DNA of 64,000 bases. Origin: a virus. The DNA lies in IMG/VR virus record IMGVR_UViG_3300049893_003686; one strand, written 5' to 3'. Below the pieces are notes generated by a model that had not been told where the DNA came from, did no database searches, and was given only the letters and a program-made list of their open reading frames with translations. The translations under genes and the position numbers were made by a program. Positions 1-57,381 of this stretch are shown one piece after another. How positions within the stretch are numbered: position 1 is the stretch's first letter; each line of letters opens with the position of its first letter.

Positions 1-160
1 GGGCTTCTAGGGCTTATAGGGCTTCTAGGGTTTCTTGGGCTTCTGAGGCTTCTGTGGCTTCTTGGGTTTCTGGGGCTTATAGGGCTTCTTGGGTTTCTGT
101 GGTTTCTGGGTTTTCGGTGGTTTATAGAGGTTATGTGGTCTCTATAGTAAGAGGCGGTAG

Positions 161-412
161 ATGATTTCTTATGCTGTAGTTTATTTTTATTCTGGGGCTT
201 CTAGGGCTTCTGGGGCTTCTGGGTCTTATAGGGCTTCTGGGTCTTATAGGGCTTCTTGTGTTTCTAGGGCTTCTTGGATTTCTAGGGTTTCTGGGGTTTC
301 TGTGGCTTCTGTGGTTTCTGGGGCTTCTTGGGCTTCTTGGGCTTCTGGCGCTTCTAGGGCTTCTAGGGTTTCTGGGGTTTCTTGGGTTTCTGGAGTAAGG
401 GGTGGTAGATGA
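161..412 (+). CDS. Candidate small repeat protein (unit A1): N-terminal [10 protein letters not shown] followed by (A/V)-S-(G/R/W) triplets, ending RGGR
   Basis: AAGAGG lies 6 nt upstream of the ATG. The TGA stop overlaps the next ATG (ATGA). Low-complexity sequence, so coding status is unproven. Confidence 0.3.
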
Positions 413-678
413 TTTCTTATGCTGTAGTTTATTTGTATGGCGGGGCTTCTTGGGCCTCTAGGGCTTCTGGGGCTTCTAGGGCTTCTGGCGCTTCTGGGGC
501 TTCTGGGGCTTCTGGGGCTTCTGGGGCTTCTAGGGTTTCTAGGGTTTCTGGGACTTCTAGGGCTTCTTGGGCTTCTTGGGTTTCTAGGGCTTCTGGGGCT
601 TATAGGGTTTCTTGGGCTTCTGGGGCTTCTTGGGCTTCTGGAGGTTGTGCAACCTCTATAGTAAGGGGTAGTAGATGA
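409..678 (+). CDS. Candidate small repeat protein (unit A2)
   Basis: AAGGGG-N6-ATG and ATGA junctions at both ends; same (A/V)-S-(G/R/W) frame as unit A1. Confidence 0.3.
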
Positions 679-971
679 TTTCTTATGCTGTAGTTTATTT
701 TTATTCTGGGGCTTCTGGGGCTTCTTTGGTTTCTGGGGCTTCTAGGGCTTCTTGGATTTCTGGGGCTTCTAGGGCTTCTAGGGCTTCTAGGGCTTCTAGG
801 GCTTCTAGGATTTCTGAGGCTTCTGTGGCTTCTTGGGTTTCTGGGGCTTCTGGGGTTTCTGGGGCCTCTGGGGCCTCTGGGACTTCTAGGGTTTCTGGGG
901 CTTCTAGGGCTTCTTGGGTGTCTAGGGTTTCTTGGATTTCTAGGGCTTCTAGAGTAAGAGGCGGTAGATGA
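675..971 (+). CDS. Candidate small repeat protein (unit A3)
   Basis: Same architecture as units A1 and A2. The following copy (ATG 968) runs out of repeats and terminates after ~25 codons. Confidence 0.3.
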
Positions 972-1601
972 TTTCTTATGCTGTAGTTTATTTTTATGGT
1001 GAGGTTTCTGACGCTAACTCATATAGTAGGATATAAGGATCTATCTTTGACGCAGTAGCATCTACATCGGGATTACATCTTGATATAGCTGTTCGTGAGC
1101 ATAATTTTAATTTTCGCAAAGATCAATAGTTGCTAATAATATAGTTTATGATAAATAGCCTAAGTCTAATCCTTAATGTCTATCTATATAGAGATTTGCA
1201 ACAAACCTTATATCAAGGTCCGCAGTCAGTGGGTTATCGGTGTTTATGATTCTTCCCACTACATCATATAGACCTTATTACCAATATAGCTTAATTTAAA
1301 GCCCCGGATTGTAACTGGGAGATGCGAGCTTATATGCTCGCTATTGGTATTTGTAATTTACATATAATCGTATGCCAGTCGCACATACATCTGCTTATAG
1401 CACTTCGATATAATTATAGTTTATTCTGCTTAGAGGGCCATGTGATTACTTCATCACAGGCAGTCTAAAGCGATTTAAACCTTCTTGAAGAAAGCAATTA
1501 TATACACTAGAAAAATACCTAACCTAGATTAAGGAAGGGTAATTCCGTCAGAGGCAATTTTCTACTGCTATCGTATATGATTTTTATATCTCTACACTAG
1601 A

Positions 1602-1715
1602 AGGTTAATATCTTAGCGTCCAAGATATTAAATACTTTTGCGAAAAAACCGATCTATAAGATCACTGAGATCGCGGGGGAAAATATTCTTAGACAAATGC
1701 ATAGGGCGATCCGAG
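1602..1715 (+). repeat. Direct repeat copy 1 (114 bp) inside the gene-free core
   Basis: Matches 2172-2284 with 3 differences seen (two substitutions and one G indel in ..ATCACTGAGATCGCGGGGGA..). Contains the hairpin AATATCTT-agcgtcc-AAGATATT and the palindrome GATCT-ATA-AGATC. Confidence 0.95.
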
Positions 1716-2171
1716 TCTATACTTACTATTATTTCCTCAAGTAAATATATCCTAAGTACCCTATATAATTCTACGAGTTTATTCGACTAATGAGATTCTT
1801 CTTTTCGCGGCCAATAAATGGCACAGCCAGCTACTAGAAGCGCCTCATATTCGGTATAAACGCATTTTATAATAATAATTCTGAGCAACCCGCATAGGCC
1901 ATCTGGGCACCCATTTGGGTCTACTGTAATCATGTATATTTATAAGATTTTATCAAAGCCACTAGTGTGTGAAAAATATATTTGGGTTAATAAATTACTA
2001 ATCTACAATATCCTGCGGCAATTTTATAGTAGGCATCGCAGGTTGCAACATTTTCTATCTTGAAGATGGCGATAAGAATCCATTATATAGCGAGCGTTCT
2101 CACCAAGTGGAAATGTGTCACATCACATTAAGACAATCGTATATAGAGACATCCAGCAATAAATACCGCAT

Positions 2172-2284
2172 AGGTTAATATCTTAGCGTCCAAGATATTA
2201 AATACTTTTGCGAAAAAACCGATCTATAAGATAACCGAGATCGCGGGGAAAATATTCTTAGACAAATGCATAGGGCGATCCGAG
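2172..2284 (+). repeat. Direct repeat copy 2 (113 bp) inside the gene-free core
   Basis: See copy 1; same orientation, about 570 bp downstream. Confidence 0.95.
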
Positions 2285-2630
2285 GATTGGATCTAACACT
2301 ACTAGATCTATTCTAATACAATAGATAGTAACTTTAATTCTCTATATGTTAACCATACTCTAAACTTAAGAGTAATTCTAATCTACCAATATCATGCCTT
2401 TGCTATAAGATCTCCGATATCTATCAAAGCTATAAGTGCGTAATAATTTTTATTAGGTTAATACATTATTAACATTAATATAAATAACTGCCTAAATTCT
2501 ACACCCTAAGTCGCATTTCTTCAGATAATTAACTACACATTAACTGTGTGGGCAGCATACAGATGAGTTTGGTAACAGCTAACCCTAAAAACCTATACGA
2601 CATCATAATATAGCTATGGAGAGCGACGAG

Positions 2631-2846
2631 ATGATTTCTTATACGGCAATTTATTGGTATGGTGAAGATTCTAATACTTATGGGGTTTCTAGGGTTTCTG
2701 GGGATTATAGGGCTTCTTGGGCTTCTGGGACTTCTTGGGATTCTGCGGCTTCTAGTGTTTCTAGGGCTTCTAAGGTTTATAGGGCTTCTTGGGTTTCTGG
2801 GGTTTTTTGGGGTTATGTAATCTCCAGAGCAAGGAGTGGTCAATGA
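2631..2846 (+). CDS. Candidate small repeat protein (unit B1)
   Basis: The homologous ATGATTTCT start is at 2631; the ORF track extends it to an upstream ATG at 2616. ATGA junction at 2843-2846. Confidence 0.25.
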   Translation: MISYTAIYWYGEDSNTYGVSRVSGDYRASWASGTSWDSAASSVSRASKVYRASWVSGVFWGYVISRARSGQ

Positions 2847-3031
2847 TCTCTCATGCGACAGTTTATCTTTATGGTGGAGCTTATTGGACTTCTAAGGCTT
2901 CTAAGGCTTCTGGGATTTCTAAGGCCTCTTGGATTTCTAAGGCTTCTGGGGTTTCTAGGGTTTCTATGGCTTCTAGGGCTTCTGGGGGTTATGGGAGCTA
3001 TATAGTCTCCAGAGCAAGAGGTGGTAGATGA
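2843..3031 (+). CDS. Candidate small repeat protein (unit B2)
   Basis: AAGGAG lies 6 nt upstream of ATG 2843. ATGA junctions at both ends. Confidence 0.3.
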
Positions 3032-3279
3032 TTTCTCATGTGGGAGTTTATTTTTATTCTGTGGCTTCTTTGGTTTCTGGGGCTTCTTTGGTTTCTAGGG
3101 CCTCTAGGGCTTCTAGGGCTTCTAGGGCTTCTGTGGCTTCTGGGGCTTCTGGGGCTTTTAGGATTTCTGGGGTTTCTGGGGCTTCTTTGGTTTCTATGAC
3201 TTCTGGGGTTTCTGGGGCTTCTGGGGTTTCTGGGGCTTCTGGGGTTTCTGGGGTTTCTGGGGCAAGAGGTGGCAGATGA
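3028..3279 (+). CDS. Candidate small repeat protein (unit B3)
   Basis: AAGAGG-N6-ATG and ATGA junctions at both ends. Confidence 0.3.
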
Positions 3280-3551
3280 TTTCTCATGTGGGAGTTTATT
3301 TTTATTCTGGGGCTTCTTGGGTTTCTTGGGTTTCTGGGGTTTCTGTGACTTCTTGGGTTTCTAGGGTTTCTGGGGTTTCTGGGGTTTCTGTGACTTCTGG
3401 GGTTTCTGGGGTTTCTGGGGCTTCTGGGGTTTCTAGGGCTTCTAAGGCCTCTATGGTTTCTGGGGCAAGAGGTGGTAGATTATTTCTCATGTGGGAGTTT
3501 ATTGGTACGGCGAGGTTACTGGAGCGGACCTATTCGTATAGGAATAGATAA
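3276..3551 (+). CDS. Candidate small repeat protein (unit B4), reading through a decayed fifth linker
   Basis: AAGAGG-N6-ATG. The next junction is mutated (AGATTA instead of AGATGA), so the ORF continues to 3551. Confidence 0.25.
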
Positions 3552-3589
3552 TTTAAGTATAAAGCAATATACTTCACATAGAGAGTGAC

Positions 3590-4078
3590 ATGAATATCTT
3601 CCTAGTAGATACTGATCCAATTAAAGCAGCACAAGCGTTATGCGACAAACATTGTATCAAAATGATTCTAGAAACAGCACAATTGCTATCAACATCAGTA
3701 TACCTCACAAAAGGAGATTTAACAGGGCTGTATAAGCCAACCCATTTAGCACATCCATGTACTAAGTGGGCCTCAGAGTCTAAGATTAATTTTAATTGGC
3801 TAAAGAACCATGGATTAGGCCTTCTGTCGGAATATACGTTTCGATATCGAAAAGAGCATAAGTCAACACAGATAATATTAAAATGCACTAATGAATCTCT
3901 ACCAGACTTACCTGCTACAGATTTTGTTCAGGTAATGCCAGAGGTATATAGACGACCAGATCCTACAGAAGCATATAGGGCTTATTATAATAGTGCAAAG
4001 TATATGATGGCCACGTGGACAAGGCGGCAGCCTCCAGAATGGTGGTGCTCACAATTGTACGTAGAAAAGCACGAATAA
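3590..4078 (+). CDS. Conserved hypothetical protein
   Basis: 162-aa ORF and the first gene after the repeat region. The motifs DKHCIKMILETAQLLS and HPCTKWA recall a widespread phage/bacterial family that I cannot name with certainty. Confidence 0.7.
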   Translation: MNIFLVDTDPIKAAQALCDKHCIKMILETAQLLSTSVYLTKGDLTGLYKPTHLAHPCTKWASESKINFNWLKNHGLGLLSEYTFRYRKEHKSTQIILKCTNESLPDLPATDFVQVMPEVYRRPDPTEAYRAYYNSAKYMMATWTRRQPPEWWCSQLYVEKHE

Positions 4079-4114
4079 AGATAATCTATTATAAAATAAT
4101 ATTGAGGAGAATAG

Positions 4115-4477
4115 ATGCAGCCATCAGATATGATAATTAATCAAAAAGACTGCAGAGGGCTATTCGAGCAGCTGATCACATCGCAACCCTATGCTTTGAT
4201 AGATAAAATAAAGCTAGGTGAATTATCCAATGCGCGTATGGGAGAAGCGCTGGAGATAATAGGTCAGCTTAATTACGAATTGATACATGATATCTATGCC
4301 AATTTAGTAAATCATCATAACTCATTGGTACGTGGTGGCATAGTTTGCGGACTAGCCCTACATTCAGAAAATGTACAAGCTAGGCAATTACTTAAACAGA
4401 TGGCTGACTCAGATCCATCAGAGACAATACGATACGCTGCCGGACAAATATATTTCGAACATAGGTCAGTAAAATGA
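4115..4477 (+). CDS. Hypothetical protein, possibly HEAT-like repeats
   Basis: GAGGAG SD upstream. The helical-repeat-like C-terminus (..VQARQLLKQMADSDPSETIRYAAGQ..) is weak evidence. Confidence 0.6.
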   Translation: MQPSDMIINQKDCRGLFEQLITSQPYALIDKIKLGELSNARMGEALEIIGQLNYELIHDIYANLVNHHNSLVRGGIVCGLALHSENVQARQLLKQMADSDPSETIRYAAGQIYFEHRSVK

Positions 4478-4965
4478 TGCAGCATGTAGTTATCCATGAA
4501 GGGTCACTCCTTGATTCTAAGGATCAGTACTTGGCCCACCAGACAAACTGCATTTCAAAAAGAGCAGCACACCTAGCAGATGAGGTATTTGCTAAATATC
4601 CATATGCGAACGTTTATTCCAAACGCACATCTCAGGATGAACCAGGAACAATCATCATTAGCGGTAACGGCAACGATGAAAGATACGTCATCAATATGAT
4701 GGGGCAGGTCTATCCAGGCAAACCTAAGTATAGCGAGAGTGCCACTGATGGGTACAGAGCCCGATATAGATATTTTTTTCTATGCCTAAAAGCTATATCT
4801 AAAATAGATAATTTGCAAAGTATTGCATTTCCATGGCAGATAGGCTGTGGCGCAGCAGGTGGCAACTGGGAAGATTACTATAATTTACTAAATAAATTCG
4901 CGAAACATTTATCAGGTAAAGTAGAAGTAAAGATATATAGACTCCCAGATGATGATCATATATAA
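4474..4965 (+). CDS. Macro-domain protein (ADP-ribose binding/hydrolase, Poa1p/TARG1-like)
   Basis: ATGA overlap with the upstream gene. Motifs YLAHQTNC and IAFPWQIGCGAAGGNW resemble the macro-domain phosphate-binding loops. Confidence 0.65.
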   Translation: MMQHVVIHEGSLLDSKDQYLAHQTNCISKRAAHLADEVFAKYPYANVYSKRTSQDEPGTIIISGNGNDERYVINMMGQVYPGKPKYSESATDGYRARYRYFFLCLKAISKIDNLQSIAFPWQIGCGAAGGNWEDYYNLLNKFAKHLSGKVEVKIYRLPDDDHI

Positions 4966-4988
4966 TTTGTTATAACAAAGGTAAATTC

Positions 4989-5387
4989 ATGAAACAAATG
5001 GCAAGTCCTGGATGGAAGAACAAATCAGGTTACTATATCATAGAAAGAGAGGAATGGCGAGCAGAAATATATCCAAGCTCCAATAATTATGCCTGGCGTC
5101 TAGATCGTGCAGGATATACCCGATTCTCGGGAGAAGATAATAATTTAGAAGAGATTAAAAGAAATTTAGAATTAATACTAGGATATAGATTTCTTGTTAA
5201 AGAAGAGATTGTTATTGATAAATATTGCACATGTGGCGGATGCGCAAGATTTACTGGTCGATGGCAAGTACTTGACTGTATGGGCGAGGAAGAGCCGATC
5301 TTTCAGAGTGAGGATGATGCATTAGCTTGGATAGCCAATCAAGACATGAAGCACGAAATAGCTAATCTGGCACACAAAATGCAATAA
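4989..5387 (+). CDS. Hypothetical protein
   Basis: 132-aa ORF with AAGG upstream of the ATG and no recognised motif. Confidence 0.65.
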   Translation: MKQMASPGWKNKSGYYIIEREEWRAEIYPSSNNYAWRLDRAGYTRFSGEDNNLEEIKRNLELILGYRFLVKEEIVIDKYCTCGGCARFTGRWQVLDCMGEEEPIFQSEDDALAWIANQDMKHEIANLAHKMQ

Positions 5388-5457
5388 TCTGTACATGTGA
5401 TACTCATATTAGCTTAACTTAATATTTGCATATCAGGATATATGTGGAGAACATAAC

Positions 5458-5697
5458 ATGTTATTTACGATAGGAAATAGAGAATTTGAATTTGCTAGAC
5501 AAACTTCTGAAATAGGCAAGCTCTTCTGTGGTATGTATAATACCGAGACTGATGCGTATATAGGGGTACATTTCTTTGTATCAAAACCGACTCATAAGTA
5601 TTGGGGATTTCAGCAAGATGAGTTGGGCGGAACTTTAATGAAGCAATTTGGATTAGGTCCAATAGCATTATTTGTGTGGGTGGCATATGGCGAATAA
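5458..5697 (+). CDS. Hypothetical protein
   Basis: 79-aa ORF with GGAGAA upstream. Confidence 0.55.
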   Translation: MLFTIGNREFEFARQTSEIGKLFCGMYNTETDAYIGVHFFVSKPTHKYWGFQQDELGGTLMKQFGLGPIALFVWVAYGE

Positions 5698-5863
5698 AAA
5701 TAGCTTGAGAGTAGCACATAAAGGGTTGGCCTATCATGAAATGACTTCAGATGTTTATGATGGTCCAAGATCTATAAGTGACCGAAAATGGTGGAAGCGA
5801 TATGCCGCGAAGCGCAAAAGACGCACTGAAGATAATGAAATTGTAGAACAGATTGGCAAGTAA
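5687..5863 (+). CDS. Hypothetical small basic protein
   Basis: ATG at 5687 overlaps the upstream gene by 11 nt; the track's alternative start is 5672. An 8-bp hairpin (GTCTCTTA-atac-TAAGAGAC, 5877-5896) follows. Confidence 0.45.
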   Translation: MANKNSLRVAHKGLAYHEMTSDVYDGPRSISDRKWWKRYAAKRKRRTEDNEIVEQIGK

Positions 5864-6133
5864 GACCTGTACCACAAGTCTCTTAATACTAAGAGACGTA
5901 TGATAGAGAAATTAGGATGGATATAAATAAACGAAATTTAGAGGATGCTGGCGATCACATAGAAGCACACTTTTTGCTCAGAGCGTGGTTATCACGAACT
6001 ATGGTAAGTATTATATATGCTTAGGCTATACTGACAGTTAATTATAGTAATTATTATTGCCTTTACTTACCTCGTATAACGCATCATCAGAGATAATACG
6101 CGGTAACTGAAATCTTATTACTAGAGATTTTAT

Positions 6134-7243
6134 ATGCATGATGAAATCAATGTTGGAGTTGTAATCGGAAGATTCCAACCTCTACACATCTGTCACCTCT
6201 CAGAGGCGATCTTGCCCGCCCTAGATGAATCAGACACATTAATCATTCTTCTCGGATCATCGCACAGACCAAGTACACCTAAAAATCCATGGACGGACTC
6301 TGATAGGGCGGAGATGATTCATCTTGGCCTAAAAGACGCAGGGATGACCGTAGAGGCATATGGAAATTGGTTATTAAAGATAGGTGCGAGTGACACTACT
6401 CAAAAGACGGTATATATTGTTCCAATAAGAGACTTTGCTTATTCAGATATTCAGTGGCAGATGCAAGTGCAGGAGAAAGTAAGAGAGATCGTTTCATCCT
6501 GCTCAAATCTCGATAGCAAATATGAATCTGCAAAAATTAATCTATTTGGAGTAGATCGTGATGATACCACATTCTACCTTAAATTATTTCCTCAATGGAT
6601 AGATAAAACAACTAAGCGGGATAAGAGCTCCGATCAAGTTAAGGGCACAATGTGCAGAGAGCTGATTTTTGCTAGCGGCGCAAAAGGTCATGGGGAGTGG
6701 GGAAAGTACTTGTCACCCCAGGTATCAGAATTCATATTAAATTGGTGTAACTCAATATCATTTTCATCACTTAAAGAAGAGTTTGATTTTCTCAAACGAT
6801 ATAAGGCAGACTTATCTGGATATAAATATCCAATTATATTTCAAACAGTAGATAATATTATTCTATATAAGGGGCACGTCTTCTTGCTAAATAGGAGGAG
6901 TTTCCCTGGAAAAGGATTGCTATCTTTACCGGGCGGGTTTATAGATTCCAGTCTAACTCTACTTCAGAGCGCGCTATCTATAGCCAAAGAGAAAAGTAAA
7001 CTTAATCTTAAATTAGACTGGCTTGTAGCAAGCAAGACTTTCGATTATCCCGGACGCTCACTAAGAGGCAGGACTATCACTACAGCATTTCTCTGGAAAT
7101 TACCCGAGACAATGAATGTAATAGTTGCAGGGGCAAATAAAGAACACTGGTATCAGCTATGCGATATCATGAAAATGAGTGATTTCTTATATGAAGATCA
7201 CTATGATATCATAATTGATATGCTACAGCTTAGCAAGACATAA
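6134..7243 (+). CDS. Bifunctional-type nicotinamide-nucleotide adenylyltransferase (NMNAT) with a C-terminal Nudix-like domain
   Basis: The N-terminal GRFQPLHICH matches the cytidylyltransferase (H/T)xGH motif of NadR/NadM-type NMNAT. The C-terminal LPGGFIDSS..LSIAKEKSKL is a degenerate Nudix box that has lost the REx2EE acidic residues. Confidence 0.8.
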   Translation: MHDEINVGVVIGRFQPLHICHLSEAILPALDESDTLIILLGSSHRPSTPKNPWTDSDRAEMIHLGLKDAGMTVEAYGNWLLKIGASDTTQKTVYIVPIRDFAYSDIQWQMQVQEKVREIVSSCSNLDSKYESAKINLFGVDRDDTTFYLKLFPQWIDKTTKRDKSSDQVKGTMCRELIFASGAKGHGEWGKYLSPQVSEFILNWCNSISFSSLKEEFDFLKRYKADLSGYKYPIIFQTVDNIILYKGHVFLLNRRSFPGKGLLSLPGGFIDSSLTLLQSALSIAKEKSKLNLKLDWLVASKTFDYPGRSLRGRTITTAFLWKLPETMNVIVAGANKEHWYQLCDIMKMSDFLYEDHYDIIIDMLQLSKT

Positions 7244-7286
7244 GTCGATATACGACGCATATAACTTATTTTCGGAGGAATATACC

Positions 7287-8768
7287 ATGGAATTTTCAAA
7301 ATTTCTACATACTGACAGTTATAAATTAGCTCACTTCGAGCAATATCCAGCAGCCAAGAAGATGGTTGCTTATGGTGAATTTCGCAAGCCGTATCCTAAT
7401 ATTAAAGATGAGCGAATTGTTGTATACGGCATACAGTATTTAGTAGATAAATTTTTAAACAAACAGTGGACGGTAGAAGAACTTAATGCCGCATCACAAT
7501 TTGCCAGCAAACATAATGCTGGTTTAAAAGAATACCCATTTCCTCGGAAATTATTTACCGACATGATTGCTGAAAATAACGGATACTTTCCAGTTAAGGT
7601 AGAGGCTGTTCCGGACGGAACAGTGGTATACCCACATGTGCCAGTGTATCAGATTACAGCAGAGGGGAAGTATTCGGGTCTGGTAACATACATCGAAAGT
7701 TTTCTGTCGCACTTATGGTATTCAACTACTGTAGCAACTCTTTCACGACATACTAAAACACTTATCAAAAATGCGTTCGATCTTACTGTAGATGATAATA
7801 TGAGGTGGTTACTTGGGAGTCGATTGCATGATTTTGGTTATCGAGGCTGTGCGTCTGATGAGCAGGCTATGATCGGAGGTGCCGCACACCTACTTAATTT
7901 TGATGGTACAGATACGATGCTAGCTGCTGCATATGCACACTATCAAAATAATGGAGAAGAATTTGCACAAAGTATTCCAGCTACAGAGCATTCGGTAATG
8001 ACATCATGGCCATCAGAAGTTGATGCAGTTCGAAATATGATCCACCACTACGGAGATGGTGTATTTGCCTGTGTAGCTGATAGCTATGACTATAAGCACT
8101 TTCTTCATCATGTATTGCCAGCAGTAGCAGCTGATGTGCAGGCTAAGGGCGGCACAATGGTAATTAGACCAGACTCTGGCGATCCACTTAAATCAGTGAT
8201 AGACGGACTCTATGCTTGTCAAAGATATTTTGGAATATCCTATAATAAAAAGGGATTTAAGGTACTGAACAATAGCGCAATAATTCAAGGTGACGGCATT
8301 AATATAGAGATAGTTGATAACATACTTACTGAGGTTATTAATAATGGATTCAGCGCACAGAACGTAGCCTTCGGCATGGGCGCCGGCCTATTACATAAAC
8401 ATAATAGAGATACTATGAGTTTTGCCACTAAGTTATCATATATTGAATATGCAGATGGGACAAGTAGGAACATTATGAAGGCACCTAAAACGGATCCGGA
8501 GAAGTACTCACTACCTGGTATACTTAAGGTAATTAATGATGACCTATTGAAGGTTGGAACAGAAGAAGATCGTGGTAATAACTTGCTGATAACAGTGTAT
8601 GATGGCAGACCAGTAGATTTTAAAGAGAAATTTTCTAACATCCGCGCTAAGGTAGAACATCAATGGAATCTCTTACCGCCTAAAGTAGAAAACCTATTTA
8701 CAGATAAGTTAAAGATGAAGATAAATGAGACAATCTTTAACTTAAGAAATAGCACGTCCAAATCCTAA
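7287..8768 (+). CDS. nadV: Nicotinamide phosphoribosyltransferase (NAMPT)
   Basis: The N-terminal HTDSYKLAHFEQYP matches the TDSYK signature. CGGAGGAA SD at 7273-7280. The length (~493 aa) and the GYRG and GDG blocks fit NAMPT. The track start at 7215 is probably an upstream extension. Confidence 0.9.
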   Translation: MEFSKFLHTDSYKLAHFEQYPAAKKMVAYGEFRKPYPNIKDERIVVYGIQYLVDKFLNKQWTVEELNAASQFASKHNAGLKEYPFPRKLFTDMIAENNGYFPVKVEAVPDGTVVYPHVPVYQITAEGKYSGLVTYIESFLSHLWYSTTVATLSRHTKTLIKNAFDLTVDDNMRWLLGSRLHDFGYRGCASDEQAMIGGAAHLLNFDGTDTMLAAAYAHYQNNGEEFAQSIPATEHSVMTSWPSEVDAVRNMIHHYGDGVFACVADSYDYKHFLHHVLPAVAADVQAKGGTMVIRPDSGDPLKSVIDGLYACQRYFGISYNKKGFKVLNNSAIIQGDGINIEIVDNILTEVINNGFSAQNVAFGMGAGLLHKHNRDTMSFATKLSYIEYADGTSRNIMKAPKTDPEKYSLPGILKVINDDLLKVGTEEDRGNNLLITVYDGRPVDFKEKFSNIRAKVEHQWNLLPPKVENLFTDKLKMKINETIFNLRNSTSKS

Positions 8769-8812
8769 AATAGTATTTAGGAATAAATTTCACCATCTCA
8801 ATAAAAAATCTT

Positions 8813-9016
8813 ATGATAACAAGATTAAAACAAAGTCTGAATTTGATTTTAAAAAAACTATCACAGGAGCATAAATCTTCTTTAGATTATGATATTCCTG
8901 AGTTAAATACAATATGCTGGAAATCCCCAGCGTATCCAACTCAAATTCATAAAGAAATACAGTTATTTGATAATGATATAATTAAATGGGAGAGGTATTT
9001 CCCAAGAGTGGAGTAG
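8813..9016 (+). CDS. Hypothetical protein
   Basis: 67-aa ORF only. Confidence 0.5.
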   Translation: MITRLKQSLNLILKKLSQEHKSSLDYDIPELNTICWKSPAYPTQIHKEIQLFDNDIIKWERYFPRVE

Positions 9017-9023
9017 AATTAAG

Positions 9024-9149
9024 ATGGCTAATATAATATATAGATTATTGCTGATTATGGCAGTACCAGCATTAATATTTGGATTATTCACTAAATGCTG
9101 GGCACCACTCAATATCTATAGAAAGTGTATACTTGTGAATTTTGAATAA
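9024..9149 (+). CDS. Possible 41-aa membrane peptide
   Basis: ATG 9024, stop 9147-9149. Hydrophobic core LLLIMAVPALIFGLF. Below the ORF-track cutoff. Confidence 0.3.
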   Translation: MANIIYRLLLIMAVPALIFGLFTKCWAPLNIYRKCILVNFE

Positions 9150-9168
9150 AGTTATTAAGGATTAGTAT

Positions 9169-9417
9169 ATGGAAAGAACGCAAATACAAGAAAGGCTCAG
9201 GTTATTAACGGAACGACAGACACTTTTAAGAGAATATTTGATGCGTCCACTGCAAGTGGCTAAAGATAAATCAAAATTATCAATAGTTGATATTAAGAAG
9301 CATCAGGTCTTACCACAACACCTATGGAAAGAAATGCAACTGCAATATTTTAAAACCTCAAAGGAAATTGAAACACTTACTGCTCAAATTGTCGATCACG
9401 GTCAAAATAAAATATGA
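9169..9417 (+). CDS. Hypothetical protein (coiled-coil-like)
   Basis: 82-aa ORF with an ATGA overlap to the next gene. Confidence 0.55.
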   Translation: MERTQIQERLRLLTERQTLLREYLMRPLQVAKDKSKLSIVDIKKHQVLPQHLWKEMQLQYFKTSKEIETLTAQIVDHGQNKI

Positions 9418-9809
9418 TACCGACTACGCTAAATACTTTAGAACAAGCACTTACAACTGGATTTTGGGAAGACCTTTTAGAGGTTTTACTTAAGCTTAAA
9501 GCTGATAAACAAGAATTGCCTAAGCAATTTAGAGGAGTGAAGAATATATATAAGGCTAAGGACCTCAAAGGGCTCTGTTTTGATCGATTAGGTGATGATC
9601 CAGATTGTGAATGGATTTTAGATGATAGACTATGGGGAGTTTTTCAAAAGCATAAAATTACAGGATACTTCGCCCATCTCGATGATAGCACGACTACATA
9701 TATTGGAACTTACTTCATGGAAGGATATGCATATAAAGCAGATGTGCTTCATAAAATGGATATGAATATTGTAGTGCGAGCGGCAGAGGAATTAAAACCT
9801 AAGGTATAA
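9414..9809 (+). CDS. Hypothetical protein
   Basis: 131-aa ORF, translationally coupled to the upstream gene. Confidence 0.6.
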   Translation: MIPTTLNTLEQALTTGFWEDLLEVLLKLKADKQELPKQFRGVKNIYKAKDLKGLCFDRLGDDPDCEWILDDRLWGVFQKHKITGYFAHLDDSTTTYIGTYFMEGYAYKADVLHKMDMNIVVRAAEELKPKV

Positions 9810-9816
9810 TTCATAC

Positions 9817-10827
9817 TTGCGGGAAGCAAAGACACTGATGCTAATTCCATGGAAAACAATACGCTCATTGCTATTTCGTCTAGATGCGGAAGATGCACAT
9901 AGTTTAGCAATTAAATATTTAAAAATATTATCCAAAGCACTCCCAGCTACATCACCAAATATTAGCTCCCCTGTAGAAGTATTCGGCGTACAATTTCCTA
10001 ACCCTTTAGGCTTAGCAGCTGGATTTGATAAAGACGGTGAAGCCATACTTGCCTGGCAAAGACTTGGCTTCGGATTTGTTGAAGCAGGGACAGTAACCGC
10101 ACATCCTCAACAAGGAAATCCTCGTCCGCGTCTAACTAGGATACCAGAGCACTATGCGCTTAAAAATTGTATGGGCTTCAATAATGCCGGAGCCAAGGCC
10201 TTAGGAATTAAGCTGCAAAAGTTACGCGACAAAGAAATAGTAAATATTCCAATAGGAATTAATATTGGAAAATCAAAAATAGTATCAAATGAAGAGGTAA
10301 TACAAGACTATTGCAAGTCGTTCTCATATATAAAAGACGTAGCTGATTATGTCGCAATAAATATCTCAAGCCCAAACACTCCAAGCTTACGAGATCTTCA
10401 GACTGCTAATATGATTAAAAAAATCATGGATGCTTTAATGGAATTAAATCGCAAGCAGGTACCGATACTTATCAAACTTTCTCCAGATTTGGATGATGAT
10501 ACATTAATAAGCTGTGCCATAGGAGCTATTGACTGTGGAGCCCAAGGTCTTATATTAGCAAATACATCTACCTCTACAGGACTGATGCCTAACATGAGCG
10601 GAGGAGTTTCCGGTCAACCTATACGAGAGCGAGCGAATTCCACAATTAAACTCATTAGGACTGCCGTTAGTGATAAGATTCCATTAATTGGAGTTGGAGG
10701 AATAATTGATCATAATGATGCCAACGAGAGGATTAAATCAGGAGCTACGCTTATACAGGCATACACTGGATTTGTTTATGGTGGACCATCGTTTGCAAAA
10801 GACATCATTCGACAATTAGATATATGA
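9817..10827 (+). CDS. pyrD: Dihydroorotate dehydrogenase (quinone), class 2
   Basis: Motifs FPNPLGLAAGFDKDGEA, GFGFVEAGTVT, GNPRPRL and MGFNNAG. The start may be TTG 9817 or ATG 9838. Confidence 0.9.
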   Translation: MREAKTLMLIPWKTIRSLLFRLDAEDAHSLAIKYLKILSKALPATSPNISSPVEVFGVQFPNPLGLAAGFDKDGEAILAWQRLGFGFVEAGTVTAHPQQGNPRPRLTRIPEHYALKNCMGFNNAGAKALGIKLQKLRDKEIVNIPIGINIGKSKIVSNEEVIQDYCKSFSYIKDVADYVAINISSPNTPSLRDLQTANMIKKIMDALMELNRKQVPILIKLSPDLDDDTLISCAIGAIDCGAQGLILANTSTSTGLMPNMSGGVSGQPIRERANSTIKLIRTAVSDKIPLIGVGGIIDHNDANERIKSGATLIQAYTGFVYGGPSFAKDIIRQLDI

Positions 10828-14139: not shown

Positions 14140-14592
14140 ATGAAGAAGGCATATATCTACGCACCGTTACCACAAGCAGTTCATCATTATTTTCCCAAAG
14201 ATCGAGGAGGAGATGATGACAGCGAACCACACTGTACGATCTTATATGTTGGCGAGATACAAGATTCACTAATACCTAAGTTAAAACAGATTCTTGATGA
14301 AGCTACAAGTGATATGCCACCTATCAAATGTAGTTTTGGACAATTAAAATCATTTCCGGGCGGGGAATACGGAGTGCCGTGGTACGTAGAGATAGATGCG
14401 GATCAAGCACTAGAGCAATTACATAAATCATTATGGAAGAACCTAGAAAACGCAGGTATTGATGTACAGCACAGGTTTAAAAACTATAAGCCACACGCTA
14501 CACTCAAATATCTTCCTGAAGGTAAGAAATATTCCGGAGATATTCCTGTAGGCGACTTCAGTATTTCTGTGGTAGAATTAGATATCCAATAA
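14140..14592 (+). CDS. 2H phosphoesterase superfamily protein (LigT/2'-5' RNA ligase-like or Acb1-like)
   Basis: Two H-x-T-x motifs (HCTI near aa 31 and HATL near aa 118) in a 150-aa protein. Confidence 0.65.
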   Translation: MKKAYIYAPLPQAVHHYFPKDRGGDDDSEPHCTILYVGEIQDSLIPKLKQILDEATSDMPPIKCSFGQLKSFPGGEYGVPWYVEIDADQALEQLHKSLWKNLENAGIDVQHRFKNYKPHATLKYLPEGKKYSGDIPVGDFSISVVELDIQ

Positions 14593-14627
14593 CCATAATT
14601 ATAGTATAATTAGAAGTAATATCAATT

Positions 14628-17222: not shown

Positions 17223-17278
17223 TATAGTCCTGCAGTAACGGAAATCATAATAATGACTACCTCCTATAAAGAGAATAT

Positions 17279-18409
17279 ATGAAATTCCCTATTATCGAGC
17301 ACACAATTTTACTTACAATAGCAGGCTCTAGGAGTTACGGTATGCACAAAAGTGACTCCGATATAGACCTAAAAGGGATAGCCATCCCTCCTATAGATTC
17401 CTATATTGGAGTTTTACCAAATTTCGAACAAGTAGAGTCATCAGAAGCAATGATGGTATATTATCCTCTACTATCGAATGATGAGAAAGATATTTCAGAT
17501 AAATATAAGCTTGAAGGGGTTATATATGATTTGCGTAAATTCATACGACTGGCATCTGGTTCAAATCCCAATATCTTAGATGTATTATTTTGCGATGATG
17601 AGCACGTCAGGTTCTCATCAAAGGCAGGAGATATCATAAGGGCTAGCAGAGATCTATTCATATCTGCACAGGCTAAGCATACATATTCTGGTTATGCAAC
17701 GGCGCAATTTAAGCGCATTAAGACTCATAGGGGATATCTGCTAAATGCTCCAAAGACAGAGCCAGACAGGAGTGAGTTCGGTCTATCAAAGGACCACTGC
17801 ATTCCACGTGCCCAGGTAGAGGCATCTTTATCAGAGATTAATAAGAAACTTGATGAGTGGGAATTAGATCTTAGCTCTATAGATTCTGAGTCTGACAGAA
17901 TGTCGATATTAAATAATATTGCACAAGTACTATCAGAAATAATGTCAACAACTGACTCTAAATGGAAGAGCTCCGCTAGAAACATCGGCTATGGCGATAA
18001 CCTTATTGAAATTCTAGACAAGGAGCGTAGATTTAGACAGGCTAAGAACGAATGGGATAAATATCAATATTGGAAGAAGGGGCGAAACTCAGCACGAGCG
18101 AAACTAGAAGAAAAATACGGGTATGATACCAAGCACGCTTCTCACTTAGTTAGATTAATGAGGATGTGTTATGAGATTTTAGTAGATGGCAAGGTCAATG
18201 TCAATCGCAAGAAAATAGATGCCGATGAATTAGTTGCGATTCGAGATGGCTCATGGAGCTACGATAAGCTAGAGGAATTCTTTATAACGATGGATAATAA
18301 ATGCAGCGAGCTGTATAATAGTAAGTCATATAGCATTCCACATAGGGTAGATATGAGTGCGATAAATGCATTGTGCGTACAACTCATCTCCGATAAGTAC
18401 AAAATGTGA
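17279..18409 (+). CDS. Pol-beta-superfamily nucleotidyltransferase, RlaP-like (RNA-repair-associated family)
   Basis: The N-terminal GSRSYGMHKSDSDIDLKG matches the G-S-x-x-Y-G..S-D-x-D minimal NTase motif of that family, as I recall it. Confidence 0.6.
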   Translation: MKFPIIEHTILLTIAGSRSYGMHKSDSDIDLKGIAIPPIDSYIGVLPNFEQVESSEAMMVYYPLLSNDEKDISDKYKLEGVIYDLRKFIRLASGSNPNILDVLFCDDEHVRFSSKAGDIIRASRDLFISAQAKHTYSGYATAQFKRIKTHRGYLLNAPKTEPDRSEFGLSKDHCIPRAQVEASLSEINKKLDEWELDLSSIDSESDRMSILNNIAQVLSEIMSTTDSKWKSSARNIGYGDNLIEILDKERRFRQAKNEWDKYQYWKKGRNSARAKLEEKYGYDTKHASHLVRLMRMCYEILVDGKVNVNRKKIDADELVAIRDGSWSYDKLEEFFITMDNKCSELYNSKSYSIPHRVDMSAINALCVQLISDKYKM

Positions 18410-25567: not shown

Positions 25568-25643
25568 GCGCCTGTAGCTCAGCGGATAGAGTACTTGTCT
25601 TCTAAATAAGGTGTCGTAGGTTCGAATCCTACCAGGCGCGCCA
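25568..25643 (+). tRNA. tRNA-Arg (anticodon TCT), CCA encoded
   Basis: Cloverleaf read by hand. Acceptor GCGCCTG/CAGGCGC. D arm GCTC-AGCGGATA-GAGT. Anticodon arm CTTGT-CTTCTAA-ATAAG. Variable loop GTGTC. T arm GTAGG-TTCGAAT-CCTAC. Discriminator G followed by CCA. Confidence 0.9.
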
Positions 25644-30857: not shown

Positions 30858-31628
30858 ATGAGCAGTAATGAACTTGGTTTGAAGATTAAAAGTTTATATG
30901 AAAATCGTACACGACTCTTGCTAGATCAAGATGAGTATATAATTATCAGAATTGATGGTAAGAATTTTTCAAGATATACTCGTAAGCTCAAAAAGCCATT
31001 CGATCAGGATCTTGCAGATGATTTCGACCAAACTGCTAAGATATTGTGCTCTCAAATCATGGGAGCACATATGGCATATACTCAAAGTGATGAGATAAGT
31101 ATTGTAGTTTCGAATTTTAGTTCTTCAGGTAAGGACATCTGGTTTAACGGAAATATACAAAAAATAGTTTCAGTATCATGTTCAATGGCAACAGCATCAT
31201 TTAATGATTCAAGAATAAAGCGAAGTGTTGATTATAAAGGTGGAATTTTTGATTCTAGGGTATTTACAATACCTGATCGCTCATCAGTATTAGAGTATTT
31301 AACCTGGAGACAAAAGGATGCAAGTAGAAATTCCATTTCCATGATTGCAAGAAGCGTAATGAGTAGTAAAGAAATGCATGGAATTTCTACTGGCAAAATA
31401 ATAGAGATTTTAAAAGATAGAGGAATAGACCTCAAAATATATAATCAAGGTCTATTGTATGGAAGAATTATTTTCAAAGAAAAATTTACAGTAACCGCTA
31501 CTCATAGTGAATACGGGATTGCTCAAAATTCTGATTCACTCAGAACAAGATGGGTAGCTAAGACAGCACCAAATTTCTCTAAAGAAGACATTTCCATAGA
31601 ATTGATTCCAGAAAGAAAGCTTTCTTGA
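30858..31628 (+). CDS. Thg1-like protein (tRNA-His guanylyltransferase / 3'-5' polymerase family, TLP)
   Basis: IIRIDGKNFSRYT..KPFDQDLADDF..MAYTQSDEISIV matches the Thg1 palm-domain blocks. Confidence 0.8.
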   Translation: MSSNELGLKIKSLYENRTRLLLDQDEYIIIRIDGKNFSRYTRKLKKPFDQDLADDFDQTAKILCSQIMGAHMAYTQSDEISIVVSNFSSSGKDIWFNGNIQKIVSVSCSMATASFNDSRIKRSVDYKGGIFDSRVFTIPDRSSVLEYLTWRQKDASRNSISMIARSVMSSKEMHGISTGKIIEILKDRGIDLKIYNQGLLYGRIIFKEKFTVTATHSEYGIAQNSDSLRTRWVAKTAPNFSKEDISIELIPERKLS

Positions 31629-56205: not shown

Positions 56206-56208
56206 TAT

Positions 56209-57372: not shown

Positions 57373-57381
57373 GGTGTATAC

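What the first reader, a model, noticed from the sequence alone, without database searches (positions are those of the whole stretch)
4474..8768. NAD+ salvage pair (NMNAT-Nudix plus NAMPT) sitting just downstream of a macro-domain gene
Seen: a macro domain (4474..4965), an NMNAT with a degenerate Nudix box (6134..7243) and an NAMPT with the TDSYK signature (7287..8768).

Established knowledge: the NAMPT plus NMNAT pair is the phage NadV/NatV-type salvage route known from KVP40-like phages. It was recently described as an NAD+ reconstitution pathway that counters NAD+-depleting host defences. Macro domains remove ADP-ribose from proteins, nucleic acids or metabolites.

Inference: together these genes look like a counter-defence module against NADase or ADP-ribosyltransferase immunity. 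The Nudix half has lost the REx2EE acidic residues, so it may bind substrate without hydrolysing it.
Basis: partly seen in the sequence, partly recalled or inferred. Interest (0 to 1): 0.5.

Follow-up and report, generated by a model that had tools for sequence, protein, structure and literature searches.

The report
Phage NAD+ salvage pair, dead Nudix
A fragment of a very large phage carries the already-known two-enzyme NAD+ rebuilding pathway, but one enzyme's ADP-ribose-cleaving half has lost its catalytic residues while staying highly conserved, and the nearby macro-domain gene is only loosely tied to the pair.

Summary
All three genes exist at the stated coordinates and the domain calls are correct. 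6134..7243 (NMNAT-Nudix, NatV) and 7287..8768 (NAMPT, NadV) form a NARP2-type NAD+ salvage pair, which is a known system.

The Nudix box is degenerate: E274L, R282S, E283I, E287K. This is shared by a clade of eight protein clusters, seven of them placed on contigs of 18-423 kb that look like huge-phage DNA. In that clade the Nudix half is more conserved (72%) than the NMNAT half (58%). It is therefore a repurposed domain, most likely non-hydrolytic, by analogy with NrtR.

The macro protein (4474..4965) is a real macro fold. It is homologous (hhalign 99.7%) to the Adpp/Poa1p/BT1257-like macros found in NARP operons, but its Gly-rich loop 1 is replaced.

Evidence for a macro plus NARP2 "module" is mixed:
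- None of 33 loci of this macro subfamily has NadV or NatV within 10 kb. Its most frequent neighbour is a DenV-like glycosylase.
- Five of seven clade genomes keep the macro 1.2-9.2 kb upstream of NatV, in a syntenic block.
- In 83 other viral NatV loci, related macros lie between natV and nadV in 14 and within 1.5 kb of the pair in 7 more.

Verdict: a new variant of a known kind, of moderate interest.

The parts
6134..7243 (+). natV: bifunctional-type NMN adenylyltransferase fused to a Nudix-fold domain. The NMNAT half is about aa 1-215 and the Nudix-like half about aa 225-369.
   Evidence: PDB 2qjo E 4e-48 over the full length. phrog_395 8e-41. AF2 pLDDT 93.6, TM 0.79-0.89 to 2qjo and 2qjt. 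NMNAT motifs GRFQPLH18ICH21 and GTMCR175 are kept. It scores below the NCBIfam equivalog cut-off, 218.6 against 397 bits.
6935..7003 (+). Degenerate Nudix box (aa 268-290): G x5 L x7 S I A x E K x K L in place of G x5 E x7 R E U x E E x G U.
   Evidence: Alignment to 2qjo and 2qjt. Among the 120 nearest homologues, 100 are canonical, and the eight-member clade P0001-P0008 lacks 3-4 of the 5 key residues, with Lys invariant at position 287. The helix at residues 276-288 is retained in the model.
7287..8768 (+). nadV: nicotinamide phosphoribosyltransferase (NAMPT).
   Evidence: NAMPT_N plus NAPRTase. phrog_448 9e-117. NCBIfam PRK09198 417.5 against 405 bits. PDB NAMPT E 2e-74 with catalytic motifs kept. 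It lies directly downstream of natV in all 7 clade genomes and on the same strand in 72 of 83 other viral loci.
4474..4965 (+). Macro-domain protein of a divergent Adpp/Poa1p/BT1257-like subfamily. Conserved HQxNC and GCGAAGGxW motifs. Gly-rich loop 1 replaced by RAAHLA.
   Evidence: hhalign 99.7%, E 9e-27, to macros embedded in NARP operons. tblastn hit to the macro of the Vibrio phage RYC Adps-macro-Namat operon.
4115..4477 (+). HEAT-repeat-like small protein whose stop overlaps the macro start codon (ATGA). Not found next to macro homologues elsewhere.
   Evidence: Pfam HEAT_2 E 1e-4, below cut-off. 0 of 33 and 0 of 83 loci.
3590..4078 (+). Pyrimidine-dimer glycosylase (T4 DenV)-like protein. 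It is the most frequent gene neighbour of this macro subfamily.
   Evidence: Pfam Pyr_excise 1.4e-7, above cut-off. phrog_624 5e-52. Within 1.5 kb upstream of the macro gene in 9 of 33 loci.
4989..5863 (+). Three small ORFs of unknown function (4989..5387, 5458..5697, 5672..5863) separating the macro gene from natV, followed by a 270-bp intergenic gap.
   Evidence: No Pfam, PHROG or NCBIfam hit. Called as genes on an independent contig of the same phage. No homologues in related loci.
63595..64000 (+). Separate stand-alone Nudix hydrolase with an intact box (GKPNPSESHINTAVRELREETSL). It runs off the window end. Context only.
   Evidence: Regex scan, translation, Pfam NUDIX 1.4e-14. The closest PDB relatives are Ap4A hydrolases and decapping enzymes.
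14140..14592 (+). 2H (LigT-like) cyclic phosphodiesterase. Context for the RNA-repair rival explanation of the macro gene.
   Evidence: Pfam 2_5_RNA_ligase2 6e-13, LigT_PEase 9e-9. TIGR02258 5e-11, below cut-off.

Best explanation
Window 6134..8768 is a NARP2-type (NadV/NatV) NAD+ salvage operon on a fragment of a very large phage. NadV makes NMN from nicotinamide and PRPP. The N-terminal half of NatV adenylylates NMN to NAD+. This supplies or restores NAD+ during infection, including in hosts whose defences deplete NAD+.

In this lineage the C-terminal Nudix domain of NatV has lost its metal-binding catalytic residues, yet it is kept under stronger constraint than the catalytic NMNAT half. 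I infer that it no longer hydrolyses ADP-ribose or NAD(H). It then serves as a ligand-binding or dimerisation module, and the enzyme becomes a net NAD+ producer with no built-in futile hydrolysis.

The macro gene at 4474..4965 is a divergent member of the Adpp/Poa1p/BT1257-like macro group. It most likely acts on a small ADP-ribose derivative such as ADPR-1''-phosphate. It is a separate accessory gene that sits in the same early or accessory gene block by conserved synteny. It is not an obligatory component of the salvage pair.

Shown: gene identities, motif loss, conservation pattern, linkage statistics. Inferred: loss of hydrolase activity, ligand binding, the macro substrate, the counter-defence role.
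For: Pair identity. The natV-nadV order is conserved in 7 of 7 clade genomes and in 72 of 83 other viral loci. NARP2 function is established for KVP40 (10.1101/2024.02.11.579819).

Dead Nudix:
- The box has lost E274, R282, E283 and E287.
- 100 of the 120 nearest homologues are canonical, so the loss is clade-specific.
- A second Nudix gene in the same window has an intact box, so the loss is not a genome-wide artefact.
- In NrtR relatives a perturbed signature goes with no ADPRase activity, and repairing the signature raises the rate 600-fold (PMC2330246).

Retained function:
- Within the clade the Nudix half is 72% identical against 58% for the NMNAT half. K287 is invariant. FDxPxRSLRGRTIT and YEDHYDII are conserved.
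- The fold is predicted with high confidence. After NadM, the nearest structural neighbours of the Nudix half are ADPR-bound NrtR sensor domains.

Macro:
-.
- Homology to NARP-operon macros at 99.7%, including the Adps-macro-Namat operon of phage RYC.
- Adpp biochemistry is described in 10.64898/2026.01.28.702374.

Loose linkage: 0 of 33. 5 of 7 clade genomes at 1.2-9.2 kb in a syntenic block.
Against: - No biochemical data exist for any protein of this clade.
- Residual or altered catalysis by the Nudix domain cannot be excluded, since E286 is kept.
- Ligand binding is inferred only from motif conservation. I could not obtain the list of ADPR-contacting residues of NadM.
- The macro subfamily lacks the Gly-rich loop 1 present in all Adpp-like, Poa1p and BT1257 relatives, so its substrate may differ.
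- Related macros are embedded inside about 25% of other viral NARP2 operons, and 5 of 7 clade genomes keep the macro upstream. A real functional tie is therefore not excluded.
- No structural phage genes lie in this window. Viral origin rests on PHROG matches and on relatives in IMG/VR and on 200-480-kb contigs.
Confidence: 0.6

Rival explanations
1. Integrated three-part counter-defence module. The macro enzyme converts an ADP-ribose derivative made by host immunity into ADPR, and works functionally with the NadV/NatV pair. An example substrate is ADPR-1''-phosphate from RES-type NAD+ phosphorolysis.
For: - Adpp-like macros homologous to the window protein (hhalign 99.7%) lie between natV and nadV in 14 of 83 viral loci. 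Another 7 lie within 1.5 kb of the pair. All are on the same strand, and P is at most 5e-6 against random placement.
- 5 of 7 genomes of the window's NatV clade keep the macro upstream on the same strand within 10 kb.
- NARP1-AP shows that a macro phosphatase can extend a NAD+ reconstitution pathway.
Against: - 0 of 33 loci of the window's own macro subfamily have NadV or NatV within 10 kb.
- The macro is absent in 2 of 7 clade genomes.
- Three unrelated ORFs and a 270-bp gap separate it from natV here, and 5-9 kb of variable genes do so in relatives.
- NARP2 uses PRPP, not ADPR, and KVP40 NARP2 cancels aRES without a macro.
- The Nudix step that could recycle ADPR to ribose-5-phosphate is inactivated in this clade.
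- This macro type is present in 2,249 deposited phage records, mostly without NARP2.
Confidence: 0.25
2. The macro protein belongs to a nucleic-acid repair set. In one version it removes ADP-ribose from DNA or protein, which would be a DarT-type counter-defence. In the other it clears ADPR-1''P made by 2'-phosphotransferase and 2H RNA-repair chemistry. On either version its closeness to NARP2 is incidental.
For: - Its most frequent neighbour is a DenV-like DNA glycosylase, in 9 of 33 loci plus the window. An Fpg/Nei glycosylase follows it in L004, L125 and L127.
- The best Foldseek hits include TARG1 and DarG, and DarG outranks Poa1p in the profile search.
- The window encodes a 2H phosphoesterase, RlaP, Thg1 and Ro60. 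In Ralstonia phage RSP15 a related macro lies about 2 kb from RnlB.
- A role for Macro in KptA-2H RNA repair is established knowledge (PMC9503650).
Against: - No KptA/Tpt1, RNA ligase or ART was detected among the scanned ORFs of the window.
- The 2H gene is 9 kb away.
- The position aligned to the DarG/TARG1 catalytic lysine is not a conserved Lys in the family.
- Profile homology is far stronger to Adpp-like macros.
- The loci may be related phages, so the glycosylase adjacency could be inherited synteny.
Confidence: 0.25
3. The Nudix half of NatV is still a hydrolase. It would use a non-canonical set of catalytic residues or a different substrate.
For: - E286 (D in one member) is kept, and other acidic residues occur at box position 14 in most clade members (D, or E in P0007).
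- The domain is strongly conserved, which is also what an active enzyme would show.
Against: - Three of the four canonical acidic residues of the box are gone. These are the Gx5E glutamate and three glutamates of the REUxEE motif; the motif's Arg is lost as well.
- One lost glutamate is replaced by an invariant Lys.
- The window protein itself has S282 and I283.
- In the closely related NrtR and Slr1690 case such perturbation reduces kcat to about 1e-4 per second.
Confidence: 0.12
4. The pair is a general metabolic booster that raises NAD+ for phage nucleotide and redox metabolism. It is not primarily a counter-defence device.
For: - NadV is found in 22-33% of medium and jumbo phages.
- The neighbourhood is rich in metabolic genes: DHODH, aminotransferase, deaminases.
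- NARP2 raises NAD+ even without any defence system.
Against: - NARP2 demonstrably overcomes Thoeris and other NAD+-depleting systems and aRES.
- The two roles are not mutually exclusive and cannot be separated from sequence.
Confidence: 0.3

Closest known systems
NARP2 / NadV-NatV NAD+ salvage of Vibrio phage KVP40
   Same: The same two enzymes, NAMPT and NMNAT fused to a Nudix fold. The genes are adjacent and co-oriented, in a large phage.
   Different: NadV is under 40% identical to any deposited phage NadV. NatV scores below the NCBIfam equivalog cut-offs. The Nudix box is catalytically degenerate, whereas I recall KVP40 NatV being reported as an active ADPR/NAD(H) pyrophosphatase. That paper was not retrievable here.
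Bacterial NadM-Nudix (Synechocystis slr0787, PDB 2qjo; Francisella tularensis, 2qjt)
   Same: The same two-domain architecture and fold, TM 0.79-0.89. The NMNAT motifs and the post-box motif FDxPxRSLRGRTIT are conserved.
   Different: RE and the second E of EE in the Nudix box are lost, with an invariant Lys at the last Glu position.
NrtR family (Nudix-related, ADPR-responsive regulators; PDB 2fml, 3gz5, 3gz8)
   Same: A Nudix domain closely related to that of NadM, with a perturbed signature and no hydrolase activity, used as an ADPR-sensing effector domain.
   Different: NrtR carries a C-terminal winged-HTH DNA-binding domain. Here the degenerate Nudix is fused to an enzyme (NMNAT) and the protein ends with the Nudix fold.
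NARP1-AP Adpp (Macro-domain ADPR-1''-phosphate phosphatase, Vibrio phage Gary) and yeast Poa1p
   Same: The window's macro family is homologous to this group (hhalign 99.7%; tblastn to the RYC Adps-macro-Namat operon macro). It shares the H-x-x-N and G-x-G-x-x-G-G-x-W type motifs.
   Different: It is not inside a NARP operon: it is the fourth gene upstream of natV, next to NARP2 and not NARP1. Gly-rich loop 1 is replaced by RAAHLA. Poa1p is only E 0.63 in the profile search.
BT1257 (PDB 2afc/2fg1), a Bacteroides macro-like protein of unknown function
   Same: The closest solved relative by sequence (E 6.5e-6). BT1257-like macros also sit next to NARP2 pairs in L086, L093 and L111.
   Different: BT1257 keeps the GGWGKG loop 1. 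Its function has not been characterised.

Membership tests
NARP2 (phage Nampt + Nmnat NAD+ reconstitution pathway) | Nampt-type phosphoribosyltransferase with intact catalytic motifs | tested here: met
   NAMPT_N plus NAPRTase. NCBIfam PRK09198 417.5 against 405 bits. E 2e-74 to solved NAMPTs with LHDFGxRG, IRPDSGDP and QGDGIN kept.
NARP2 (phage Nampt + Nmnat NAD+ reconstitution pathway) | An Nmnat homologue encoded with it in the same phage genome | tested here: met
   natV ends 43 bp upstream of nadV on the same strand. The NMNAT motifs H18..H21 and T172..R175 are kept.
NARP2 (phage Nampt + Nmnat NAD+ reconstitution pathway) | No associated Adps (Prs-like) gene, which would indicate NARP1 | tested here: met
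   No Prs-like or Pribosyltran hit among about 60 scanned ORFs of the window. Only 64 kb of a larger genome was visible.
NARP2 (phage Nampt + Nmnat NAD+ reconstitution pathway) | Restores NAD+ and overcomes NAD+-depleting defence systems | not testable with these tools
   Requires infection assays and NAD+ measurement.
Bifunctional NadM-Nudix / NatV (NMNAT plus ADPR pyrophosphatase) | Two-domain architecture: N-terminal NMNAT plus C-terminal Nudix fold | tested here: met
   Full-length alignment to 2qjo and 2qjt. AF2 pLDDT 93.6, TM 0.79-0.89.
Bifunctional NadM-Nudix / NatV (NMNAT plus ADPR pyrophosphatase) | Canonical Nudix box GX5EX7REUXEEXGU, the catalytic signature of the pyrophosphatase half | tested here: not met
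   L274, S282, I283 and K287 replace E, R, E and E. The same holds for the whole clade P0001-P0008.
Bifunctional NadM-Nudix / NatV (NMNAT plus ADPR pyrophosphatase) | Reaches the NCBIfam equivalog cut-off | tested here: not met
   Best model NF003786 scores 218.6 bits against a cut-off of 397.
NrtR-like ADPR-sensing Nudix domain | Perturbed Nudix signature on a NadM-like Nudix fold | tested here: met
   NCBIfam NtrR model E 2.6e-4 on residues 215-320.
NrtR-like ADPR-sensing Nudix domain | C-terminal winged-HTH DNA-binding domain | tested here: not met
   The protein ends at residue 369 with the last Nudix helix.
NrtR-like ADPR-sensing Nudix domain | Binds ADP-ribose as an effector | not testable with these tools
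   Only indirect evidence: the post-box motifs FDxPxRSLRGRTIT and YEDHYDII are conserved.
Macro domain superfamily | Macro fold | tested here: met
   AF2 pLDDT 90. Foldseek probability 1.00, TM 0.62-0.67 to TARG1, nsP3, Poa1p and DarG.
Macro domain superfamily | Pfam PF01661 gathering threshold | tested here: not met
   19.8 bits against 22. 21 of 34 family members match at E up to 1, best 6.7e-6.
Adpp / Poa1p-like ADPR-1''-phosphate phosphatase | Homology to macros of NARP operons | tested here: met
   hhalign 99.7%, E 9e-27. tblastn to the RYC operon macro at E 2e-4, 27% identity over 89%.
Adpp / Poa1p-like ADPR-1''-phosphate phosphatase | Gly-rich loop 1 after the H-x-x-N-C motif (mGxGia) | tested here: not met
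   The window family has NCxxxRAAHLA, with A32 invariant and H33 at 90% or more.
Adpp / Poa1p-like ADPR-1''-phosphate phosphatase | Encoded within two genes of the NARP core genes (the criterion of 10.64898/2026.01.28.702374) | tested here: not met
   Three called genes lie between the macro gene and natV, and the pathway is NARP2, not NARP1.
Adpp / Poa1p-like ADPR-1''-phosphate phosphatase | Dephosphorylates ADPR-1''P to ADPR | not testable with these tools
   Enzyme assay needed.
DarG / TARG1-type ADP-ribosyl glycohydrolase | Catalytic lysine (TARG1 K84, DarG K80; residue numbers from my own knowledge) | tested here: inconclusive
   In the profile alignment to DarG (E 0.03), the FPTKKHW segment aligns to the variable PGkPKyp region, where no Lys is invariant. 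The alignment is weak.

The most novel reading that the evidence does not exclude
The catalytically dead but highly conserved Nudix domain of this NatV clade is an ADP-ribose (or ADPR-1''P) sensor that allosterically gates the fused NMNAT. NAD+ rebuilding would then switch on only when host NADases are firing. This would remove the reported metabolic cost and toxicity of constitutive NARP2. The nearby Adpp-like macro enzyme would convert non-canonical cleavage products into the sensed ligand.
Probability: 0.12. Interest if true: 0.75.

Novelty: new variant of a known kind. Interest (0 to 1): 0.42.

Why it matters
NAD+ depletion is one of the commonest bacterial anti-phage strategies, and NARP1, NARP2 and NARP3 are the known viral answers to it.

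A NatV lineage that has switched off its own ADPR/NAD(H) pyrophosphatase, yet guards that domain more tightly than the catalytic half, suggests an unrecognised regulatory or structural layer in NARP2. This parallels the way NrtR turned the same fold into an ADPR sensor.

Separately, this work found that Adpp-like macro genes are embedded in roughly a quarter of sampled viral NARP2 operons. I did not see this described in the papers I could read, which report it only for NARP1. It suggests that ADPR-1''P processing is coupled to salvage more widely than thought.

For this window itself the practical consequence is modest. It is a recognisable NARP2 pair with an interesting variant domain and a loosely linked macro gene.

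Tried and rejected
1. A near-identical phage search by megablast found nothing. A single-sequence search of IMG/VR with NatV also found nothing. The clade is absent from IMG/VR, where the clade-profile scan gave only 31-33% hits.
2. Fold search alone could not assign the macro subfamily. TARG1, alphavirus, Poa1p and DarG all score TM 0.62-0.67.
3. I tried to obtain the ADPR-contact residues of NadM. The structure paper is not held, and the NrtR paper gives no list. Ligand binding therefore remains an inference.
4. The KVP40 NatV biochemistry paper is not in the library. Statements about its Nudix activity rest on my own knowledge.
5. The promoter and terminator scan of 3300..9500 was uninformative. 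It found 33 promoter-like sites against 24 expected, and no + strand terminator between the macro gene and natV.
6. I looked for KptA/Tpt1, RNA ligase, ART or Adps genes in the window and found none among the scanned ORFs.
7. I looked for a cultured phage with a natV-macro-nadV operon. The best macro hits (RSP15, Synechococcus B23) have the macro elsewhere. B3 and B23 have two hypothetical genes between natV and nadV that are not this macro type.
8. I considered that the degenerate box might be a sequencing or composition artefact and rejected this. The identical protein occurs on an independent contig, seven relatives share the degenerate box, and another Nudix gene in the window has an intact box.

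Full report
**1. Observation**

The three ORFs are present on the + strand at the coordinates given.

- The macro call is weak in Pfam: PF01661, E 8e-4, 19.8 bits against a 22-bit cut-off. It is supported by phrog_335 'phosphatase' at 7e-15. It is also supported by a confident AlphaFold model (pLDDT 90) and by Foldseek matches to TARG1, alphavirus nsP3, Poa1p and DarG macro domains (TM 0.62-0.67).
- The 369-aa protein aligns end to end with the NadM-Nudix crystal structures, 2qjo at E 4e-48 and 2qjt at E 1e-31. Its model has pLDDT 93.6 and superposes on them at TM 0.79-0.89.
- The 493-aa protein has NAMPT_N plus NAPRTase domains and passes the NCBIfam PRK09198 cut-off. It aligns to solved NAMPTs at E 2e-74 with LHDFGxRG, IRPDSGDP and QGDGIN intact. 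TDSYK is at residues 9-13.
- The ATG at 7287 is the supported start, not the TTG at 7215, judging by homologue lengths and an independent gene call.

**2. Genomic setting**

- Megablast against deposited phages finds nothing. NadV is under 40% identical to any of 2,015 phage records that hold a homologue.
- The window is a dense, almost entirely + strand array of accessory genes. These include a DenV-like glycosylase, DHODH, ATP-dependent DNA ligase, an aminotransferase, a 2H phosphoesterase, ClpB, RlaP, Thg1, Ro60/TROVE and IF3. It also carries deaminases, an E2/JAB/E1 set and a Dam methylase, plus one tRNA-Arg.
- No capsid or terminase gene lies in the fragment. Several ORFs match phage-only PHROGs. 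The closest relatives of NatV and of the macro protein lie on 200-480-kb contigs, many of them in IMG/VR.
- I treat the window as a fragment of a huge phage. This is a strong inference, not proof.

**3. The salvage pair**

- natV followed by nadV is conserved in all seven genomes of the window's NatV clade. Homing-endonuclease-like genes are inserted between them in two of these.
- NadV is present on the same strand in 72 of 83 more distant viral NatV loci.
- This is the KVP40-type NadV/NatV route. It was named NARP2 and shown to overcome Thoeris and other NAD+-depleting systems (10.1101/2024.02.11.579819) and aRES (10.64898/2026.01.28.702374).
- Surveys report NadV in 22-33% of medium and jumbo phages, and NadM always together with NadV (PMC9503650).
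- The pair itself is therefore already known.

**4. The degenerate Nudix box**

- The window protein reads G268-F-I-D-S-S-L274...S282-I283-A-K-E286-K287-S-K-L, against the canonical GX5EX7REUXEEXGU.
- Among the 120 nearest homologues from a 5.8-billion-protein collection, 100 have the full E/RE/EE set. The eight closest clusters (P0001-P0008, 51-100% identity) all lack RE and the last Glu, which is an invariant Lys. All 83 IMG/VR NatV homologues but three keep RE..EE.
- The loss is therefore specific to a small clade. It is not an assembly artefact. The identical protein occurs on an independent contig, and another Nudix gene at 63595 to beyond the window end has an intact box.
- Within the clade the Nudix half is more conserved than the NMNAT half, at 72% against 58% mean pairwise identity. 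The post-box motifs FDxPxRSLRGRTIT and YEDHYDII are invariant. The NMNAT motifs (H18, H21, T172, R175) are intact.
- The established precedent is NrtR. Its Nudix domain is structurally very close to NadM's. A perturbed signature there goes with loss of ADPRase activity, repairing the signature raises the rate 600-fold, and ADPR acts as an effector (PMC2330246).
- After NadM, the best structural matches of the window's Nudix half are ADPR-bound NrtR domains.
- I infer a non-hydrolytic role that is still under selection: ligand binding, regulation or dimerisation. A likely benefit is that the enzyme no longer degrades ADPR or NAD(H). Activity loss and ligand binding are inferences and were not shown here.

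**5. The macro protein**

- About 295 homologues form a family of roughly 160-aa proteins, mostly without any Pfam call. Invariant residues include N25, C26, G130 and W132, and H22 is nearly invariant.
- By sequence profile the closest solved relative is BT1257, of unknown function (E 6.5e-6). DarG scores 0.03 and Poa1p 0.63.
- The window protein hits the 'putative phosphatase' that lies between Adps and Namat in Vibrio phage RYC. This is the NARP1-AP arrangement, in which the Macro protein Adpp dephosphorylates ADPR-1''P made by aRES.
- A profile-profile comparison of the window family with macros from NARP operons gives 99.7% probability, E 9e-27.
- However, the Gly-rich loop 1 (mGxGia) that all those relatives share is replaced by RAAHLA in the window family. 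The substrate may therefore differ.

**6. Is it a module?**

Three tests were made.

- (a) Macro-centred loci. In 33 IMG/VR loci of the window's macro subfamily, none has NadV or NatV within 10 kb. The most frequent neighbours are the DenV-like protein (9 within 1.5 kb upstream), a metallophosphoesterase (10) and Thg1 (6).
- (b) The NatV clade. In five of seven genomes the macro lies upstream on the same strand, at 1.2 kb in the window and at 5.4, 6.2, 6.9 and 9.2 kb in the others. The relatives share a syntenic block that also holds Fpg, PTH2 and YqeY. In two genomes the macro is absent within 10 kb.
- (c) NatV-centred loci. In 83 more distant viral loci, an Adpp-like macro is present in 26, always co-oriented. 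It lies between natV and nadV in 14 and within 1.5 kb of the pair in 7 more. It occupies 14 of the 35 intergenic gaps large enough to hold a gene, with binomial P at most 5e-6 under a conservative null.

Operonic coupling between Adpp-like macros and NARP2 is therefore real in other lineages. I did not find it described in the papers I could read. For this window the tie is loose and can be explained by inherited synteny. Base rates are high: 56% of jumbo phages have a Macro domain, and this macro type occurs in 2,249 deposited records.

Mechanistically, NARP2 does not consume ADPR. The only step that could feed ADPR back, Nudix cleavage to ribose-5-phosphate and then PRPP, is inactivated here.

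**7. Rivals for the macro**

- A DNA-directed or repair role is suggested by the glycosylase neighbours and by structural similarity to DarG and TARG1. The catalytic-lysine position is not conserved, although that alignment is weak.
- A role clearing ADPR-1''P from RNA repair is suggested by the 2H, RlaP, Thg1 and Ro60 genes. No KptA or RNA ligase was found in the visible 64 kb.

**8. Verdict**

- The NARP2 reading and the dead-Nudix reading are supported.
- The three-gene module reading is only partly supported.
- The finding is a new variant of a known system: a clade-level, selectively maintained, catalytically degenerate Nudix domain in NatV, with a divergent Adpp-like macro nearby.
- Interest is moderate. 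It would rise sharply if the Nudix domain proved to be an ADPR-responsive switch on NMNAT.

Noticed in passing
window 1..3470: Long arrays of a 9-bp tandem repeat (GGGCTTCTN; one array at 190..950 has about 84 copies). They are interrupted by short unique stretches and arranged in higher-order units of about 185-270 bp. They generate the spurious '[14 protein letters not shown]...' ORFs on both strands. Function unknown; they could be iterons, an origin or a terminal region.
   Followed up: partly
L087, L088, L096, L098, L099, L101, L102, L103, L116, L117, L119, L056, L063, L066 (e.g. L101:10998-11453): In 14 of 83 IMG/VR NatV loci an Adpp/Poa1p-like macro gene lies between natV and nadV, and in 7 more it lies within 1.5 kb of the pair. 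This 'NARP2 with associated macro' arrangement was not described in the papers I could read. Three of the adjacent ones (L086, L093, L111) are BT1257-like.
   Followed up: yes
proteins P0010, P0013-P0015, P0017, P0019, P0021-P0023 (NatV homologues): A neighbouring clade shows the reciprocal pattern. The NMNAT motifs are eroded (HxxH becomes MRAQ or LREQ, and the SxTxxR motif is missing) while the Nudix box is intact. Either half of this fusion can apparently be inactivated separately.
   Followed up: no
window 9817..10827: A full-length dihydroorotate dehydrogenase (PF01180, E 2e-72) is encoded 1 kb downstream of nadV. This is an unusual pyrimidine-biosynthesis gene for a phage. It matches phrog_14943, annotated 'unknown function'.
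   Followed up: no
window 55495..58239: Consecutive Prok-E2_D, Prok-JAB and ThiF/E1-like genes form a ubiquitin-like conjugation and deconjugation set on a phage fragment, flanked by unknown ORFs.
   Followed up: no
window 14140..18409, 30858..31628, 37853..39460: A set of RNA repair and quality-control genes: 2H phosphoesterase, ClpB-like AAA+ (864 aa), RlaP nucleotidyltransferase, Thg1-like tRNA-His guanylyltransferase, and Ro60/TROVE with a vWA domain. No RNA ligase or KptA was seen in the window.
   Followed up: partly
window 63595..64000 (runs off the end): A stand-alone Nudix hydrolase with a canonical box. It is closest to Ap4A hydrolases and mRNA-decapping enzymes, not to ADPR pyrophosphatases.
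   Followed up: yes
window 3590..4078 and L010, L012, L013, L015, L020, L022, L024, L025: A DenV-like (Pyr_excise, phrog_624) gene lies within 1.5 kb upstream of this macro subfamily in 9 of 33 loci and in the window. In L004, L125 and L127 an Fpg/Nei glycosylase follows the macro gene. Whether this reflects function (DNA de-ADP-ribosylation or repair) or shared ancestry is open.
   Followed up: partly
window 41162..41677 and 25568..25643: A phage-encoded translation initiation factor IF3 (both domains) and a tRNA-Arg(TCT). IF3, PTH2, YqeY and tRNA-synthetase-like fragments recur near natV-nadV in the relatives L004, L125 and L127.
   Followed up: no
L125:11291-11839 (-), L127:6751-7275 (-): In two clade relatives a minus-strand gene of 174-182 aa sits between natV and nadV. 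HNH and GIY-YIG homing-endonuclease genes lie nearby, which suggests mobile insertions into the operon.
   Followed up: no
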